This document shows positions 1,403 through 47,171 of a DNA stretch of 64,000 nucleotides, in pieces. Below the pieces are notes generated by a model. It did not search any database, was not told the origin of the DNA, and saw only the letters and a program-made list of their open reading frames with translations. The stretch spans positions 1 to 64,000 of the IMG/VR virus record IMGVR_UViG_3300045988_149282, one strand, 5' to 3'. The stretch's first letter is position 1. Every line of letters begins with the position of its first letter. The position numbers and the translations under genes were made by a program. Origin of the DNA: a virus (Duplodnaviria > Heunggongvirae > Uroviricota > Caudoviricetes).

Positions 1403-1464
1403 GAGGGGAGGGCCACCGATGCTGGTGGCCATCAATTACCACCTGCTTTCCCGCAGGCTAAAAA

Positions 1465-1551
1465 CACCCACCTCTTACCGCCAGGCTACCGAAGCACCCA
1501 CCTGTTCCCGTCCGGCTACCGAAGCACCCACCTGTTCCCGTCCGGCTACCG
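1465..1551. repeat. tandem direct repeats, ~3 copies of a 30-bp unit (iteron-like)
   Basis: CACCCACCTGTTCCCGTCCGGCTACCGAAG repeated head-to-tail (two near-identical copies plus one diverged, and a more degenerate copy at ~1438-1464) in the intergenic region. Confidence 0.7.
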
Positions 1552-1637
1552 CAACTTTCCACTTTGACGCCTTATTCGTACAACGATAATTAACACCAAC
1601 AAGAAAACAATTTGTTATTTACGATAAGGAATTAATC

Positions 1638-2120
1638 ATGAATTTTATCGCTACTGTAAACGCACCCGCACATGGCAATATCGCTGTAACGTTCTCTGAC
1701 ATTGAAAAACGAGTACTTGGTGCATGGCGCGACAATGAGACGGTAGAACTGTCAGCACAAGAAAAATGCATTATTGCACGCGACATCATTGGCAATCGTC
1801 GTTACTCGCGGGTATTTGAGAAAGCGTATGTGGTAAATTCTGGATTCGGAACGTTCGTCTTTCCGGTGCGCTCCGGGCGATTCTGCCAGTCCAAGCTGAT
1901 TGAGTTCGCTACGCAGATTTCTGTCTGGATTAAAACTCAATCGTCGTTCAAATTTTCCGACGATGAAGCAGTATCGCAGGGGATGCGGATCGCCAACAAT
2001 GCAATTAAATGCAAAAACATTACGTATACCGCTGGCGTTGATACATGGAAACTGTTTTGCGCTAACTTTATGCTGAATGTATACGCAAGCAACCGCATCC
2101 ACATCCTTGATGGCGTGTAA
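1638..2120 (+). CDS. hypothetical protein (160 aa)
   Basis: ORF with AAGGA RBS; preceded by a second copy of the upstream motif block (1583-1616); hairpin terminator follows at ~2124-2152. Confidence 0.55.
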   Translation: MNFIATVNAPAHGNIAVTFSDIEKRVLGAWRDNETVELSAQEKCIIARDIIGNRRYSRVFEKAYVVNSGFGTFVFPVRSGRFCQSKLIEFATQISVWIKTQSSFKFSDDEAVSQGMRIANNAIKCKNITYTAGVDTWKLFCANFMLNVYASNRIHILDGV

Positions 2121-2123
2121 CTG

Positions 2124-2152
2124 AGAAGAGGGCCAGAAACGGCCCTTTCTCT
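2124..2152 (+). terminator. Rho-independent terminator (candidate)
   Basis: AGGGCC-AGAAAC-GGCCCT hairpin followed by TTCTC, after the 1638..2120 ORF. Confidence 0.5.
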
Positions 2153-2711
2153 ATAGCCACCAGCTGCCGCAGGGAAATTTTCAGAAACGGCGAGGAACGT
2201 ATTCATGAGCCGACGGGGAACGGCCAGGATTTTTTCGGGAAACGGCTGCATTTGCCTTTGTGTAGAAAAAACATCGGGAAGCTGGTGGAATCCAACCAGC
2301 GGTTGTCGGACAGGTGAGCGGGGAAAATTATGATGACTTTCGTCACCTGAGACATCCAGATTTCTTTCGTAGCATAATCACATACGTGATTAAGTGGTGT
2401 GATTATGTGAAAAATCACGCGCACATAATACACGAGCGGATACGGAACAAAACAAAATACCGATCCGCACCGACAAATAAGCGCGGATCACATAGCAAGA
2501 CTAAAAGCCAATGATTAACCATACTCTATAGCGCAATATAACGCGTTTTAAGCGCGTTAATGTGTTAAGTAATGGGCATGTACTGGTAAGGATATAAAAG
2601 CGCGTCTATGGCGTTATTTTGGCGCTTATTTTTATGTTGTTGGAGTGAGTTAAAGACAATAAAAACGCGCCATCATTGGCGCGTTATGGTAGGTGTATTG
2701 GAAACGAAAAA

Positions 2712-2730
2712 AGCGCCCATAGTGGGCGCT
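2712..2730. terminator. bidirectional hairpin terminator (AGCGCCCA-TAG-TGGGCGCT)
   Basis: Perfect 8-bp GC-rich stem flanked by an A-run upstream and T-run downstream; immediately 3' of the minus-strand gene ending at 2736. The same stem recurs at 3217-3237. Confidence 0.55.
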
Positions 2731-2735
2731 CGATT

Positions 2736-2966
2736 TTATTTGTGTAAACTGATTTTAAATCCCATTTCTACGAACGCTTTTAACATTAAAAATATATCAG
2801 CGTCGTTCACGTCTGCTTTTTTTCGCTCCTGGTCGCTCAATAAGTCAATTTTGCGCGTCGTTTCGTCTATAAACTCGACTGCGCGCCCAGCGTAACCAGC
2901 GATCCCAGCGATGCGATTAACATAATATTCATTATGGACGTTAACGCCAGCGATAAGAACAAACAT
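2736..2966 (-). CDS. hypothetical small protein (76 aa)
   Basis: Minus-strand ORF with AAGGAG RBS upstream of ATG at 2966; bidirectional hairpin terminator immediately downstream (2712-2730). Confidence 0.45.
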   Translation of the reverse strand: MFVLIAGVNVHNEYYVNRIAGIAGYAGRAVEFIDETTRKIDLLSDQERKKADVNDADIFLMLKAFVEMGFKISLHK

Positions 2967-2986
2967 GATTAAGCTCCTTAAAAAAA

Positions 2987-3190
2987 TTAAATAGAATTTT
3001 GAAGTTTTCCGATTAATACGCTTAAGCGTAAGTATTCACGTTTGCGCTTGCAATCTCGCTTGCTGTTAAGCAAATCAGAAAACGTAAAATTTAATTGGTC
3101 GCGTTGCGCGATCAAATCGTCGATTAATTCCAGTTTATAAGCGCGATAATTTGCGCGATATTCTGCGCGGATCTTGTCATAGCTGACCAT
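2987..3190 (-). CDS. hypothetical small basic protein (~67 aa)
   Basis: ORF track 2987..3235; internal ATG at 3190 has RBS AAAGGAGC; the longer start would overlap the hairpin at 3217-3237. Confidence 0.4.
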   Translation of the reverse strand: MVSYDKIRAEYRANYRAYKLELIDDLIAQRDQLNFTFSDLLNSKRDCKRKREYLRLSVLIGKLQNSI

Positions 3191-3238
3191 CTTTAAAGCT
3201 CCTTTAAAGCGCCCACAATGGGCGCTTGATTCCATTAA

Positions 3239-3889
3239 TTACGCTTTAAAAGCATCAGCTAAATAATTGTAGAAATCATTCTTGATAAAGCGATATTGCT
3301 GTGTACCAGCTTTTGCGCTTCCCATTCCTTTGACTTTCTCAACAAGCCCAAGACGTTCGCAAAGATTGATCAACTGGTTGGCTTGAGTATAGCCAGCGTC
3401 TAATTTAATTTCACACGCTTTTTTAGCTTCATTCATTAAATCGAAAACAGCACCATTGGTGAACGTGTCGATCTCGTCGTTAATCATATCGATTAAAGCG
3501 AATACACGAGATCCAGACATATCAGCGATGGAATAAACGCATTTGCCAGATTTAATTGATTTAACCAGATAAACCAGTTTTTCCAGAGAATAACTATTAG
3601 TCATTGCATCACGGAAAAATACTTCTGGCGCTTGTTTGCTTGCTTTAATTGCATAGTAGAAAACAGAGCATAATTTTTCGTCTTCTACTGCGTTTACGAC
3701 GTTGTTGATGAAGTAAGCAAGTTTCGTGGTCGCAGCTTGCATATTTGCTTTGTCTGCTTTGGTGTGCGTACCATTTTTATAATGTTCATTATATGTTTGA
3801 GTTGCCAGATCTGCTTTTTCGCGCAGTTCATCGGATACAATGGAAGCAGCTTCAACGATGGATTTTTTAGAAATGATAATGTTAGCCAT
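3239..3889 (-). CDS. hypothetical protein (216 aa), possible DNA-binding/regulatory protein
   Basis: Minus-strand ORF, AT-rich; weak HTH-like C-terminal segment; long AT-rich promoter-like region upstream (3890-4150). Confidence 0.5.
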   Translation of the reverse strand: MANIIISKKSIVEAASIVSDELREKADLATQTYNEHYKNGTHTKADKANMQAATTKLAYFINNVVNAVEDEKLCSVFYYAIKASKQAPEVFFRDAMTNSYSLEKLVYLVKSIKSGKCVYSIADMSGSRVFALIDMINDEIDTFTNGAVFDLMNEAKKACEIKLDAGYTQANQLINLCERLGLVEKVKGMGSAKAGTQQYRFIKNDFYNYLADAFKA

Positions 3890-4147
3890 GATGGATATCC
3901 TTACGAAAAATTAAAATGAATTTATTTTTTACTGTCGTTAGCTAGCTCGCTTTCGACGAGTTCAATTATCGATACGTGAAAAAAGATTGCAAGTATTTTT
4001 TTTAAATTTTCTGCAGGGATGAAAGTCCTAGAAATAAAAGCGAGATCGTCGAAGGTGTTCCCTAAATAAATAATCAATTCGGGCTTTTAACCTTATATAT
4101 TTATACAGAGTGGCATTGAATGAGTTTTAAATGAATGGCATGTAAAA

Positions 4148-4173
4148 TAATAACCGGGCTTAGCCGGTTATTA
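4148..4173 (-). terminator. hairpin terminator for the minus-strand operon
   Basis: TAACCGG...CCGGTTA inverted repeat immediately 3' of the gene ending at 4185. Confidence 0.5.
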
Positions 4174-4184
4174 CCCTTATAGAT

Positions 4185-4709
4185 TTAAAATGGAAGGATT
4201 CGTTCAACCCAATCGAAGAAAACAAGTATTTTTCTGCCGTCTTCTAACTTAAGAGTGACCTGGCAAGCATCAACGCCTCTTGACACCCCTTCAATTTCAC
4301 GACCGTCTGCCATGTAGACCCTTATAGATTGGTCGTTTTGATAAGCCTTGCGACATATCGCAAAAAAGTCACGGCGTGATGGCTGATTGTCAACATAGTC
4401 TGGATGTATTGTTAGCCTACCTTTGAACTCGCGAGCAATGCCATCGATTACACCTGATTCAATTGTGCTAATGCGCTCAAGTGGGAGTCTTATACGATTT
4501 TCTTTATCATATGGAAGCGGGCATAAATCTAGCTTATTGCGGGAAGGCATTGTCCCCTGAACGTACATGCAAAACACCTGACCGTCTTCAAGCGTGACTC
4601 TTACAGGAATGTTGTTCTTCCGCCAGAACATAAGTATGTTTTCAGCATGTTCGTAGTCTCGCGGCCAGACTTCAGCCGGTATGCCGTAGGTGATGTCCGA
4701 TGTTCTCAT
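4185..4709 (-). CDS. hypothetical cytoplasmic protein (174 aa)
   Basis: Minus-strand ORF; start overlaps the stop of the upstream gene (ATGA); hairpin terminator downstream at ~4148-4173. Confidence 0.55.
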   Translation of the reverse strand: MRTSDITYGIPAEVWPRDYEHAENILMFWRKNNIPVRVTLEDGQVFCMYVQGTMPSRNKLDLCPLPYDKENRIRLPLERISTIESGVIDGIAREFKGRLTIHPDYVDNQPSRRDFFAICRKAYQNDQSIRVYMADGREIEGVSRGVDACQVTLKLEDGRKILVFFDWVERILPF

Positions 4710-10600: not shown

Positions 10601-10655
10601 CCTGCTTCTGTATATATAAATAATAAGTAACTTATTAAATATATACGGAAGCAGG
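10601..10655. repeat. 55-bp palindromic element, copy 1 (exact duplicate of 47001..47055)
   Basis: CCTGCTTCTGTATATATAAATAATAAGTAACTTATTAAATATATACGGAAGCAGG; near-perfect inverted repeat (one G-T position) centred on AATAAGTAACTTATT. Confidence 0.8.
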
Positions 10656-10690
10656 CTTCGTAAGACATGCCAGACCTAGTTAAACGCCCC

Positions 10691-47000: not shown

Positions 47001-47055
47001 CCTGCTTCTGTATATATAAATAATAAGTAACTTATTAAATATATACGGAAGCAGG
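47001..47055. repeat. 55-bp palindromic element, copy 2 (exact duplicate of 10601..10655)
   Basis: Identical 55-mer located between the GIY-YIG gene and the replication module. Confidence 0.8.
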
Positions 47056-47171
47056 TCTTTTAAAAGACACCACCAGAACAACTCCCTTCCGTTTCCACTT
47101 CCAAAAACTGCCACCAGTCGCTATCATCCGCTCATTGTGATAAGTAAGTAACTACCTACCAGGTGAGCCAC

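What the first reader, a model, noticed from the sequence alone, without database searches (positions are those of the whole stretch)
2520..3237. Cluster of GCGC-core hairpins in an AT-rich noncoding stretch, with the same stem re-used 500 bp apart
Between 2160 and 2735 there is about 570 bp with no convincing ORF, containing several perfect palindromes with GCGC cores: AACGCGTTTTAAGCGCGTT (~2540-2560), AACGCGCCATCATTGGCGCGTT (~2656-2677) and AGCGCCCATAGTGGGCGCT (2712-2730). The last stem recurs as AGCGCCCACAATGGGCGCT at 3217-3237, between two minus-strand genes. Re-use of an identical 8-bp stem with different loops suggests a sequence-specific element (protein-binding hairpin or processing site) rather than generic terminators.
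Basis: seen in the sequence. Interest (0 to 1): 0.45.

Follow-up and report, generated by a model that had tools for sequence, protein, structure and literature searches.

The report
Repeated terminator hairpins flanking small-gene cassettes
The hairpins are real, but they are best read as a family of transcription-terminator stem-loops at the end of a small leftward operon of an SSU5-like phage-plasmid; the re-used copy marks the boundary of small accessory genes that come and go between relatives. This is an ordinary kind of element with a tidy evolutionary story.

Summary
True positions are hp1 2540-2558, hp2 2664-2685, hp3 2712-2730 and hp4 3208-3226. The interval is the densest cluster of GC-rich perfect hairpins in the window.

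The window is an SSU5-like phage-plasmid. On the minus strand a 216-aa gene, a 67-aa gene and a 76-aa gene form one unit.
- hp3 and hp2 follow the last stop codon. Each carries a T-run that is conserved in all relatives on that strand only, so they are tandem intrinsic terminators.
- hp4 has the same stem but sits between the 216-aa gene and the next ribosome-binding site. Its T-run is shortened, so it is probably a leaky terminator or attenuator.

Across 78 related loci the hairpin flanks a variable cassette: none, p67, p76, both, or two p76 variants. Cassette-free genomes carry the hairpin followed by a T-run straight after the 216-aa gene. One pair of relatives differs by exactly one hairpin-plus-gene unit (247 bp). 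This mirrors the PeSL shuffling modules of T4-type phages, minus the promoter.

The loops invert freely (CTA/TAG), which argues against loop-specific recognition. The 7-bp stem core is nevertheless essentially invariant, while a neighbouring control terminator shows a compensatory change. A sequence-specific role is therefore not excluded. Interest is low to moderate.

The parts
3239..3889 (-). 216-aa gene (PHROG 1513, function unknown); first gene of the leftward unit whose 3' end carries the hairpins
   Evidence: ORF list. PHROG E = 1e-139. Annotated as a CDS in PhiR41_1, Cyrano and SSU5. No Pfam, NCBIfam, PADLOC or PDB match.
3208..3226 (-). hp4: internal copy of the hairpin, AGCGCCCA-ttg-TGGGCGCT on the minus strand. 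It starts 12 nt after the 216-aa stop codon and is followed by TTTAAAGGAGC, the Shine-Dalgarno sequence of the 67-aa gene. Proposed leaky terminator/attenuator and cassette boundary.
   Evidence: Sequence. RNA fold of the 61-nt context -15.5 kcal/mol. Fails the T-run criterion of the terminator scan. Internal copies in relatives carry mostly 2-4 T in the 8 nt after the stem, against 5-7 for terminal copies.
3196..3208 (-). RBS module AAGGAGCTT of the 67-aa gene; short direct repeat of the RBS module of the 76-aa gene (2971-2983)
   Evidence: D15. Cyrano lacks about 225 bp carrying the 67-aa gene, and the gap in the alignment runs from one RBS repeat to the other.
2987..3190 (-). 67-aa cassette gene (PHROG 6145). 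The real start is the ATG at 3190 with SD AAGGAG; the longer ORF from 3235 runs through hp4 and is an artefact.
   Evidence: profile 1-67 of 67. The PhiR41_1 CDS is 204 nt. Present or absent among relatives.
2736..2966 (-). 76-aa cassette gene (PHROG 1585, function unknown)
   Evidence: Present or absent among relatives, with diverged variants at 45-51% identity.
2700..2730 (-). hp3 plus T-run: AGCGCCCA-cta-TGGGCGCT TTTTTTCGTTTC on the minus strand, 5 nt after the 76-aa stop codon. Primary intrinsic terminator of the operon.
   Evidence: Terminator scan hit on the minus strand. Fold -15.6 kcal/mol, z = -4.2. The T-run is conserved after the last copy in 64 of 65 distinct arrays.
2650..2685 (-). 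hp2 plus T-run: AACGCGCCA-atga-TGGCGCGTT TTTATTGTCTTT on the minus strand, 25 nt after hp3. Back-up (tandem) terminator and probable paralogue of hp3 (core GCGCCA against GCGCCCA).
   Evidence: Terminator scan. Fold -14.8 kcal/mol, z = -3.6. Core conserved with flipping loops in relatives. The same position is occupied by an hp3-type hairpin in L098, L121 and L079.
2598..2627 (-). Degenerate hairpin AAGCGC...GCGCTT with an 18-nt loop, followed by TTATAT. SSU5 and Klebsiella relatives have an intact AAACGCG-N9-CGCGTTT plus T-run here.
   Evidence: Read from the sequence. Inference only.
2540..2558 (.). hp1: AACGCG-N7-CGCGTT, sharing its outer 6 bp with hp2. Weak, with no T-run on either strand. 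It lies in a zone that is a degenerate ~10-nt repeat (TTTTAGCGCG) in relatives.
   Evidence: The stem is kept with 3 loop changes in Cyrano. It is not a hairpin in SSU5 or the Klebsiella phages.
2461..2490 (-). Further minus-strand terminator-like hairpin, GATCCGCG...(C/T)GCGGATC plus GTATTTTGTTTTGTT
   Evidence: Terminator scan. The window differs from PhiR41_1 by a change that gives G.U on the minus-strand RNA but A.C on the plus strand.
2129..2153 (+). Terminator of the convergent 160-aa gene (AGGGCC-agaaac-GGCCCT TTCTCT). Used here as the control terminator.
   Evidence: Its stem shows a compensatory C-G to G-C change among the same relatives.

Best explanation
The hairpins are one family of Rho-independent terminator stem-loops that act in the minus-strand RNA of a short operon of an SSU5-like phage-plasmid. 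The operon is the 216-aa gene, then the 67-aa gene, then the 76-aa gene.

**Terminal copies.** hp3, backed up 25 nt later by its paralogue hp2, ends the operon. hp3 begins only 5 nt after the last stop codon. A terminating ribosome would probably interfere with its folding, which would explain why a second terminator follows. That last step is inference.

**Internal copy.** hp4 has the same stem, but its U-tract is cut to about 3 U by the Shine-Dalgarno sequence of the next gene. It most likely acts as a partial terminator or 3'-end stabiliser. The conserved 216-aa gene would then be expressed more than the accessory genes behind it, while read-through still reaches them. This is also inference.

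**Why the stem is re-used.** The unit 'hairpin + short T-run + SD' is the repeated boundary of a cassette site.
- Recombination or replication slippage between hairpin copies deletes, duplicates or swaps the small genes between them.
- It also keeps the copies alike (concerted evolution).
- The loops flip by intra-hairpin template switching.

**The other hairpins.** hp1 and the other weak hairpins further downstream are degenerate relatives or chance palindromes in the same GCGC+T-run-rich tail.
For: **Element and gene order.** The window matches Escherichia phages CMS-2020a, PhiR41_1 and Cyrano at 95.6-96.5% identity, and SSU5 and Klebsiella phages at about 80%.

**Strand.**
- The terminator scan calls hp3 and hp2 on the minus strand.
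- The T-run after the last hairpin is present in 64 of 65 distinct arrays (5-7 T in 8 nt).
- It is also present after hp2 in most relatives.
- The plus-strand tails are not T-rich in SSU5 or pJN2-26.
- Of the outermost-pair variants, 6 are G..T, which is G.U on the sense RNA, and 2 are fully compensated G-C. Three are T..T and one is C..T.

**Internal against terminal copies.** Internal copies have mostly 2-4 T and are followed at once by AAGGAG or AAGGAT.

**Cassette behaviour across the 78 related loci.**
- The hairpin sits 13-17 nt after the 216-aa stop codon in all but one (L079) of the loci where it was found there.
- The architectures found are: no cassette, hairpin straight after the gene; p67; p76; p67+p76; p76'+hairpin+p76, with three hairpins; and a p76'' variant.
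- L053 and L033 differ by a single 247-bp indel. It equals exactly one hairpin+SD+p67 unit and is bounded by the two hairpin copies.
- Diverged relatives carry 2-4 tandem hairpin+T-run units with no gene between them.

**Concerted evolution.** L039 carries the rare loop pair TCA/TGA in both copies, in opposite orientation.

**Family relationship.** hp2's core is hp3's core minus one C:G pair. L079 has a hybrid, AACGCGCtCCA...TGGGCGCGTT.

**Locality and generality.**
- The stem is local to this site: 2 copies in the complete 107,998-bp PhiR41_1 genome.
- The same stem appears away from 216-aa/160-aa gene homologues in 36 of 117 IMG/VR stretches, often with terminator-like A/T-run flanks.

**Published precedents.**
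- Recombination between repeated regulatory stem-loops, with a single copy at the empty site: PMC2839356.
- Loop inversion by template switching: PMC8794818.
Against: - No transcript data were available, so termination, read-through and polarity at hp4 are all inferred.
- The 7-bp stem core is almost invariant across a depth of divergence at which flanking non-coding sequence is no longer visibly similar. At more modest divergence a neighbouring control terminator has a compensatory change. Generic terminator selection alone does not predict this. I attribute it to turnover and gene conversion, which is plausible but not shown.
- Recombination breakpoints in mosaic relatives do not fall cleanly on the hairpins.
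- The window's own p67-p76 junction has no hairpin, and the Cyrano deletion used the repeated SD rather than the hairpin.
- hp4 in the window has a very poor U-tract and may not terminate at all.
Confidence: 0.7

Rival explanations
1. The invariant 19-nt palindrome (8-bp half-sites around a free 3-nt centre) is a sequence-specific binding site. It could be an RNA hairpin operator next to the SD of the cassette gene, bound for example by the FljA-like protein encoded about 1 kb upstream. It could equally be a double-stranded DNA operator or roadblock for a dimeric protein. Termination would then be secondary.
For: - The stem core is essentially invariant in 75 distinct loci, down to 53% identity of the flanking protein, whereas the control terminator shows a compensatory change.
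- The conservation forms an island: stem 1.00, flanks 0.52-0.79. The copies were selected by matching the core, so the 1.00 partly follows from the selection.
- A variable centre between conserved half-sites is what a dimeric DNA-binding site looks like.
- hp4 lies 3-11 nt from the SD in every architecture except the p76'' variant.
- The upstream 174-aa gene matches Pfam Flag1_repress at 5e-81. FljA-type proteins block fliC mRNA translation (PMC2652032).
Against: - hp2, a different stem, is conserved in the same way with flipping loops. Strong stem conservation is therefore not special to this sequence.
- The terminal copy has no downstream gene to regulate, yet it keeps a perfect T-run.
- The same stem appears elsewhere in IMG/VR away from 216-aa/160-aa gene homologues, often with terminator-like flanks.
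- Tandem copies with no gene between them fit terminators better than operators.
- No promoter overlaps any copy.
- No link to any protein could be tested.
Confidence: 0.13
2. Some hairpins in the non-coding stretch (hp2, hp1, 2461-2490) are not back-up terminators of the operon. They would instead be terminators or structural parts of one or more small RNAs transcribed within 2440-2700.
For: - About 560 bp of ORF-free sequence between two convergent terminators is a lot to leave unused. It is annotated as non-coding in PhiR41_1 and Cyrano.
- The stretch contains operator-like inverted repeats (2375-2392, 2399-2420), promoter-like hexamers on the plus strand and several hairpin+T-run units on the minus strand.
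Against: - There is no Rfam family at gathering score. The only hit is Hrs1 at E = 0.1 and 24 bits, against a 56-bit cut-off.
- Only 25 nt separate hp3 from hp2, which leaves no room for a gene.
- hp1 is not conserved outside the E. coli group.
- No promoter-like site was found on the minus strand inside the stretch.
Confidence: 0.1
3. The shared stem is a coincidence: two independently evolved generic GC-rich terminators.
For: The stem recurs elsewhere in IMG/VR away from this gene neighbourhood, so it can probably arise independently.
Against: - 0 of 100 shuffles give two copies.
- The similarity extends to 31 nt.
- Both positions carry the same stem in dozens of relatives, and the copy number tracks the cassette content.
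Confidence: 0.02

Closest known systems
Rho-independent (intrinsic) terminators, including tandem and intercistronic attenuating terminators
   Same: - A GC-rich 8-9-bp stem with a 3-4-nt loop and a U-tract on the transcribed strand, placed just after a stop codon.
- A second terminator close behind the first.
- An internal copy with a weakened U-tract placed between cistrons.
   Different: - The stem sequence, not only the pairing, is held constant across a whole phage-plasmid family.
- It is repeated at the cassette boundaries.
- Function has not been measured.
PeSL (promoter-early stem-loop) modules of T4-type phages (Arbiol et al. 2010, PMC2839356; PMC4122927)
   Same: - A repeated regulatory stem-loop that terminates or attenuates and sits just upstream of the SD of small genes of unknown function.
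- Occupied sites have a copy on each side of the ORF, and the empty site has one.
- The inferred role is recombination between copies driving gene gain and loss.
   Different: - There is no sigma-70 promoter component. Only about 17 nt separate the hairpin from the start codon in the window, and no promoter-like hexamers were found.
- The repeat is about 19-30 nt rather than about 100 nt.
- Copies are confined to one locus rather than about 50 dispersed copies.
- Mini-circles have not been shown.
Phage morons (autonomous accessory gene units bounded by a terminator)
   Same: Small accessory genes of unknown function vary among close relatives and are bounded by a terminator hairpin. The PHROG category for p67 is 'moron'.
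   Different: The cassettes have no promoter of their own. They rely on read-through from the 216-aa gene.
Hairpin-loop inversion by replication template switching (PMC8794818; small inversions in chloroplast hairpins, from my own knowledge)
   Same: A perfect stem with the loop found in both orientations among close relatives: CTA/TAG, TTG/CAA, TTA/TAA, TCA/TGA and, in hp2, TCAT/ATGA and TTGT/ACAA.
   Different: Here it is seen repeatedly in a terminator of a phage-plasmid. The rate has not been quantified on a tree.
Integron attC sites
   Same: A folded palindromic site follows each promoterless cassette in an array.
   Different: - The site is a 19-nt perfect palindrome of fixed sequence rather than a 57-141-nt imperfect site with R''/L''/L'/R' boxes and a GTTRRRY core.
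- No integron integrase is adjacent.

Membership tests
Rho-independent terminator | GC-rich stem of about 5-14 bp with a short loop | tested here: met
   hp2 has 9 bp with 6 GC, hp3 has 8-9 bp with 6 GC, and hp4 has 9 bp with 6 GC. Folds of the 51-61-nt contexts are -14.8 to -15.6 kcal/mol. hp1 has only 6-7 bp and folds at -8.1 kcal/mol.
Rho-independent terminator | U-rich tract directly 3' of the stem on the transcribed strand | tested here: met
   Met for hp3 (TTTTTTCGTTTC) and hp2 (TTTTTATTGTCTTT) on the minus strand, and conserved in relatives. Not met for hp4 in the window (TTTAAAGGAG), and only partly met for internal copies elsewhere (mostly 2-4 T). Not met for hp1.
Rho-independent terminator | Located downstream of a co-oriented gene or operon | tested here: met
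   hp3 lies 5 nt after the 76-aa stop codon and hp4 12 nt after the 216-aa stop codon, both on the minus strand.
Rho-independent terminator | Transcript 3' ends map to the U-tract, with measurable termination efficiency | not testable with these tools
   No RNA-seq or Term-seq data were accessible. The transcriptome table of the LF82/Cyrano paper is held only as an image.
PeSL (T4-type promoter-early stem-loop) | Sigma-70-like promoter combined with the stem-loop | tested here: not met
   No promoter-like site lies near any copy. In the window only about 17 nt separate the hairpin from the start codon, and the SD fills much of that gap.
PeSL (T4-type promoter-early stem-loop) | Copies flank variable ORFs, and the empty site carries a single copy | tested here: met
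   Architectures in 78 loci. L053 and L033 differ by one 247-bp unit bounded by the hairpins.
PeSL (T4-type promoter-early stem-loop) | Many copies dispersed through hyperplastic regions of the genome | tested here: not met
   There are only 2 copies, both at this locus, in the complete PhiR41_1 genome and in the 64-kb window.
PeSL (T4-type promoter-early stem-loop) | Excised mini-circles carrying one chimeric copy | not testable with these tools
   This needs outward-facing PCR or deep sequencing of phage DNA.
Integron attC | Imperfect 57-141-nt palindrome with R''/L''/L'/R' boxes and a GTTRRRY core, plus a nearby intI | tested here: not met
   The hairpin is a 19-nt perfect palindrome with no GTTRRRY. 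The only annotated integrase in PhiR41_1 is about 50 kb away.
Loop-read RNA protein-binding hairpin (for example lambda boxB/nut type) | Conserved loop sequence recognised by the protein | tested here: not met
   The loop is CTA in 97 copies and TAG in 15, with nine other loop variants making up 12 further copies. Inverted pairs occur among close relatives.

The most novel reading that the evidence does not exclude
The hairpin may be more than a terminator. It could be the dedicated, sequence-specific joint of a miniature cassette-exchange site in SSU5-like phage-plasmids. In that reading its invariant 7-bp core is kept because a protein recognises it, either as RNA next to the cassette SD or as a DNA palindrome. 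Candidates are the adjacent FljA-like RNA-binding repressor, the 216-aa protein of unknown function, or a recombination function. This would explain why the sequence, and not just the pairing, is almost fixed across relatives in which the neighbouring protein has diverged to 53% identity.
Probability: 0.1. Interest if true: 0.6.

Novelty: new member of a known kind. Interest (0 to 1): 0.3.

Why it matters
As terminators these hairpins are ordinary. The modest value lies in the evolutionary pattern.

- SSU5-like phage-plasmids are widespread. A 1.8-kb stretch around this locus matches 770 PLSDB plasmids from Klebsiella, Escherichia, Enterobacter, Yersinia and Salmonella, in whole or in part.
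- At this site small accessory genes of unknown function are gained, lost and swapped between copies of one terminator hairpin.
- This gives a compact, testable example of regulatory repeats acting as recombination joints outside the T4-like phages.
- It also flags two small genes (67 and 76 aa) as dispensable accessory cargo worth testing for lysogenic-conversion or anti-defence roles.
- It corrects annotation. The 67-aa gene should start at 3190, and its 'MIT/CorA transporter' label is not credible for a protein of that size.

Tried and rejected
- **Rfam scan of 1500-4500 at E up to 1.** It gave only a sub-threshold Hrs1 hit (24 bits against a 56-bit cut-off), which I rejected as chance.
- **Function of the 216-, 67-, 76- and 160-aa proteins.** Pfam, NCBIfam, PADLOC and the PDB sequence search gave nothing usable.
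- **AlphaFold on the 216-aa protein, single sequence.** It gave pLDDT 54 and pTM 0.40. That is too poor for a fold search, so none was run. I ran no further search on building an alignment, because the protein's identity would not change the reading of the hairpins.
- **Do mosaic breakpoints between relatives fall on the hairpins?** They do not fall there cleanly. Identity switches occur inside p76 or 30-50 nt beyond hp3. I therefore rest the recombination claim on the copy-number pattern and the exact 247-bp indel, not on breakpoints.
- **Transcriptome evidence.** I looked in the LF82/Cyrano paper, but the relevant table is an image and nothing could be extracted.
- **Other families considered and rejected.**
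  - attC sites and loop-read hairpins of the boxB type: see the membership tests.
  - REP/BIME elements, from my recollection of the REP consensus: I saw no resemblance, and the stem is not dispersed.
  - Telomere or flip-flop replication hairpins: at 19 nt and internal, this does not fit.
- **The ORF 2987-3235 that reads through hp4.** Rejected in favour of the start at 3190.
Full report
**1. What the window is**

Region 1600-4200 matches Escherichia phages CMS-2020a, PhiR41_1 and Cyrano at 95.6-96.5% identity. It matches Klebsiella phage-plasmids and Salmonella phage SSU5 at about 80%. A 1.8-kb stretch around the finding matches 770 PLSDB plasmids, in whole or in part. These come from Klebsiella, Escherichia, Enterobacter, Yersinia, Salmonella and others. 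The window is therefore part of an SSU5-like phage-plasmid.

**2. The observation**

All four palindromes exist.

|---|---|---|---|
| hp1 | AACGCG-ttttaag-CGCGTT | 2540-2558 | ~2540-2560 |
| hp2 | AACGCGCCA-tcat-TGGCGCGTT | 2664-2685 | ~2656-2677 (8 nt off) |
| hp3 | AGCGCCCA-tag-TGGGCGCT | 2712-2730 | 2712-2730 |
| hp4 | AGCGCCCA-caa-TGGGCGCT | 3208-3226 | 3217-3237 (9 nt off) |

- The hp3/hp4 core occurs exactly twice in 64 kb, against none in 100 shuffles.
- The similarity between the two copies extends to 31 nt at 84%.
- The finding's interval has 4 GC-rich perfect hairpins. No other 718-bp window sampled has more than 3.
- GCGC is 5-fold enriched at 2400-3300, the maximum in the window.
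- The stretch 2160-2735 has no annotated CDS in PhiR41_1 or Cyrano. The four ORFs overlapping it have no meaningful PHROG match.
- 'AT-rich' is only mild: 40-45% GC against 47%.

**3. Anatomy**

Three minus-strand genes form one unit.
- 3889..3239: 216 aa, PHROG 1513.
- 3190..2987: 67 aa, PHROG 6145.
- 2966..2736: 76 aa, PHROG 1585.

The last two each have an AAGGAG Shine-Dalgarno sequence. The 67-aa gene starts at 3190, not at the upstream in-frame ATG at 3235 that would read through hp4. The PhiR41_1 CDS and the PHROG profile both give 67 aa.

The gene upstream of the unit is a 174-aa FljA-like protein (Pfam Flag1_repress, 5e-81). A perfect 10-bp hairpin at 4148-4173, followed on the minus strand by TTTTAC, lies just after it and looks like its own terminator. 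The stretch 3890-4185 contains a promoter-like site on the minus strand. The three-gene unit therefore probably has its own promoter; this is inference.

Read on the minus strand, the hairpins look like this.
- hp3 is AATCG-AGCGCCCA-cta-TGGGCGCT-TTTTTTCGTTTC, beginning 5 nt after the 76-aa stop codon.
- hp2 follows 25 nt later as AACGCGCCA-atga-TGGCGCGTT-TTTATTGTCTTT.
- The terminator scan calls both on the minus strand. The 51-nt contexts fold at -15.6 and -14.8 kcal/mol, with z = -4.2 and -3.6.
- hp4 lies 12 nt after the 216-aa stop codon. It is followed by TTTAAAGGAGC, the SD of the 67-aa gene, so it fails the T-run criterion.
- Further downstream on the minus strand there are a degenerate hairpin (2627-2598), hp1, and a hairpin plus T-run at 2490-2461.
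- Seven of the ten GCGC sites in the non-coding part (2400-2735) read as 'GCGC + T-rich run' on the minus strand.

**4. Comparative evidence**

I fetched 78 IMG/VR loci encoding relatives of the 216-aa protein, at 53-100% identity, and surveyed them.

In all but one (L079) of the loci where it was found, the first copy of the hairpin GCGCCCA-N3-TGGGCGC sits 13-17 nt after the 216-aa stop codon. What lies between that first copy and the last copy varies.

| Content between first and last hairpin | Loci |
|---|---|
| Nothing: one hairpin followed directly by TTTTTT | 10 loci |
| p67 only | Many Klebsiella-type loci and SSU5 |
| p76 only | Cyrano, p4727 and others |
| p67 + p76 | The window, PhiR41_1 |
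| p76 variant (45% identity) + hairpin + p76, three hairpins in all | L025, L026 |
| p76 variant at 51% identity | L046, L048, L049, L073 |

- Several architectures occur within each clade of the 216-aa protein, so the events are recurrent.
- L053 (empty) and L033 (p67) have near-identical flanks. They differ by one 247-bp indel that equals exactly one hairpin+SD+p67 unit, with both ends inside the hairpin copies.
- More diverged relatives carry 2-4 tandem hairpin+T-run units at 44-47-nt spacing with no gene between them.
- L079 (53% identity) has the order 216'-hairpin-p67-like-hairpin-hairpin. Its first hairpin is AACGCGCtCCA-tag-TGGGCGCGTT, which combines hp2's outer stem with hp3's inner stem.
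- That hybrid, together with hp2's core being hp3's core minus one C:G pair, suggests that hp2, hp3 and hp4 are paralogues (inference).

**5. Strand and function**

- The copy that ends the array has 5-7 T in the 8 nt after the stem in 64 of 65 distinct arrays. Internal copies mostly have 2-4 T, merging into AAGGAG or AAGGAT.
- hp2 keeps its minus-strand T-run in most relatives.
- The plus-strand tails of hp3 and hp2 are not T-rich in SSU5 or pJN2-26.
- Of the outer-pair variants, 6 are G..T, which is G.U in the sense RNA, and 2 are fully compensated G-C; three are T..T and one is C..T.

Together these place the function on the minus-strand transcript. They make hp3 and hp2 canonical tandem intrinsic terminators, and hp4 a T-run-depleted internal copy.

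Three steps are inferred rather than shown. hp4 may attenuate or stabilise rather than fully terminate. It may set a higher expression of the 216-aa gene relative to the cassette genes. hp2 may compensate for ribosome interference at hp3, which starts only 5 nt after a stop codon.

**6. Sequence conservation and loop flipping**

- The 7-bp core is identical in 75 distinct loci. The one exception is L042, where both copies have a single mismatch.
- Around the core, flanks are 52-79% conserved and the loop 75-88%. The copies were picked by matching the core, so its 100% in that profile follows partly from the selection.
- The loops occur as reverse-complement pairs among close relatives: CTA (97) and TAG (15), TTG/CAA, TTA/TAA and TCA/TGA. 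In hp2 the pairs are TCAT/ATGA, TTGT/ACAA and TTGA/TCAA.
- Loop inversion in perfect hairpins by replication template switching is a described mutational mechanism (PMC8794818).
- Free inversion argues against any loop-reading factor.
- In L039 both copies carry the same rare loop in opposite orientation, which suggests copy-to-copy conversion.
- The terminator of the convergent 160-aa gene serves as a control. In the same genomes it has two stem types related by a compensatory C-G to G-C change. The hairpin core never varies.

I explain the invariance by cassette turnover and gene conversion repeatedly resetting the copies. A sequence-specific constraint remains possible, and I give that rival 0.13.

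**7. Distribution**

- In the complete PhiR41_1 genome (107,998 bp) the core occurs only at these two positions, and hp2's core occurs once. The element is therefore local, not dispersed.
Of these, 81 lie next to 216-aa or 160-aa gene homologues. The other 36 do not, and there the stem is often flanked by A- and T-runs as in a terminator. The stem is thus not unique to this neighbourhood.

**8. Comparison with known systems**

- The hairpins meet the sequence criteria of intrinsic terminators. hp4 and hp1 do not meet the U-tract criterion.
- The cassette topology matches PeSL-mediated modular shuffling in T4-type phages, where repeated promoter+stem-loop modules flank ORFans and the empty site has one copy (PMC2839356).
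- This element is not a PeSL. It lacks the promoter, is much shorter, and is confined to one locus.
- It is not an attC site: no R/L boxes, no GTTRRRY core, no adjacent integrase.
- It is not a boxB-like loop-read hairpin.

**9. Limits**

- There are no transcript data.
- Mosaic breakpoints do not sit cleanly on the hairpins.
- The window's p67-p76 junction has no hairpin, and the Cyrano/window difference appears to have used the repeated SD (AAGGAGCTT) rather than the hairpin. The whole 'hairpin-T-run-SD' module, rather than the stem alone, probably supplies the microhomology.
- hp1 is weak and may be a chance palindrome within a degenerate TTTTAGCGCG-type repeat.
- The role of the roughly 560-bp ORF-free stretch as a whole remains open. 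It also contains four GRAACGGC repeats and operator-like inverted repeats.

**10. Verdict**

The thing itself is a locally repeated terminator-hairpin family marking a small-gene cassette site. It is a new member of known kinds, namely intrinsic terminators and regulatory repeats used as recombination joints. Interest is 0.3.

Noticed in passing
window 4185-4709 (-): The 174-aa gene just upstream of the unit matches Pfam Flag1_repress (FljA, repressor of phase-1 flagellin) at 5e-81. It also has a weak Hfq/LSM-like C-terminal match. A phage-plasmid-borne flagellin translation repressor could silence the host's fliC.
   Followed up: partly
window 2136-2246 (+): Four direct copies of GRAACGGC lie within 110 bp. 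The first is inside the terminator of the 160-aa gene. There are only 7 matches in the whole window. Three of the four are recognisable in SSU5, where the copy inside the terminator is changed. They could be iterons or a protein-binding array.
   Followed up: partly
window 2375-2392 and 2399-2420: Operator-like inverted repeats TAATCACatacGTGATTA and GTGATTatgtgaaaAATCAC overlap a plus-strand promoter-like site (GAGACA-18-CATAAT, 2349-2378). This may be a regulated promoter pointing into the ORF-free stretch.
   Followed up: no
window 2400-3300: GCGC is 5-fold enriched (20 per 900 bp against 4.1 +/- 2.7), the maximum in the window. Part of it comes from the hairpin arms. Part comes from a YRA-NYRA-Y peptide repeat in the 67-aa gene (TATCGCGC x3 at 12-nt spacing, 3141-3168).
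   Followed up: partly
window 7367, 16081, 26117, 50574, 54095: A recurring AT-rich palindrome family built on (GA)TAAGTA...TACTTA(TC). One example is ATAGATAAGTaatcACTTATCTAT at 26117-26140. It may be a candidate operator or promoter motif of the phage.
   Followed up: no
window 10601-10672 and 47001-47072: A 72-nt direct repeat, 89% identical and 36.4 kb apart. Its first 55 nt are themselves a long near-perfect palindrome (CCTGCTTCTGTATATATAAATAATAAGTAACTTATTAAATATATACGGAAGCAGG).
   Followed up: no
window 113, 1020, 1071, 1587, 44976, 47906, 60511 (+): Seven copies of a 30-nt motif ending in AAGAAAACAAGTTGTT (D1). Whether they sit upstream of genes was not checked. It may be a shared promoter or regulatory motif.
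   Followed up: no
window 1462-1551: Three tandem 30-nt repeats (AAACACCCACCTCTTACCGCCAGGCTACCG and variants, D4).
   Followed up: no
L151 1497-1603, L115 8080-8142, L098 4123-4188, L121 11795-11860: Diverged relatives carry 2-4 tandem copies of hairpin plus T-run at 44-47-nt period with no gene between them. In L151 the spacers are identical. This looks like slippage amplification of the terminator unit.
   Followed up: partly
window 2987-3190 (-); SSU5_119: The 67-aa protein is annotated in SSU5 as 'putative MIT family metal ion transporter CorA', and the label has passed into PHROG 6145. A 67-aa soluble-looking protein cannot be a CorA channel, so the annotation is almost certainly wrong.
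   Followed up: partly
L053 about 3590-3640 (homologous to window 2520-2560, minus strand): The zone corresponding to hp1 is a tandem ~10-nt repeat (TTTTAGCGCG x3) in L053 and is degenerate in others. hp1's palindrome may be a by-product of this repeat.
   Followed up: no
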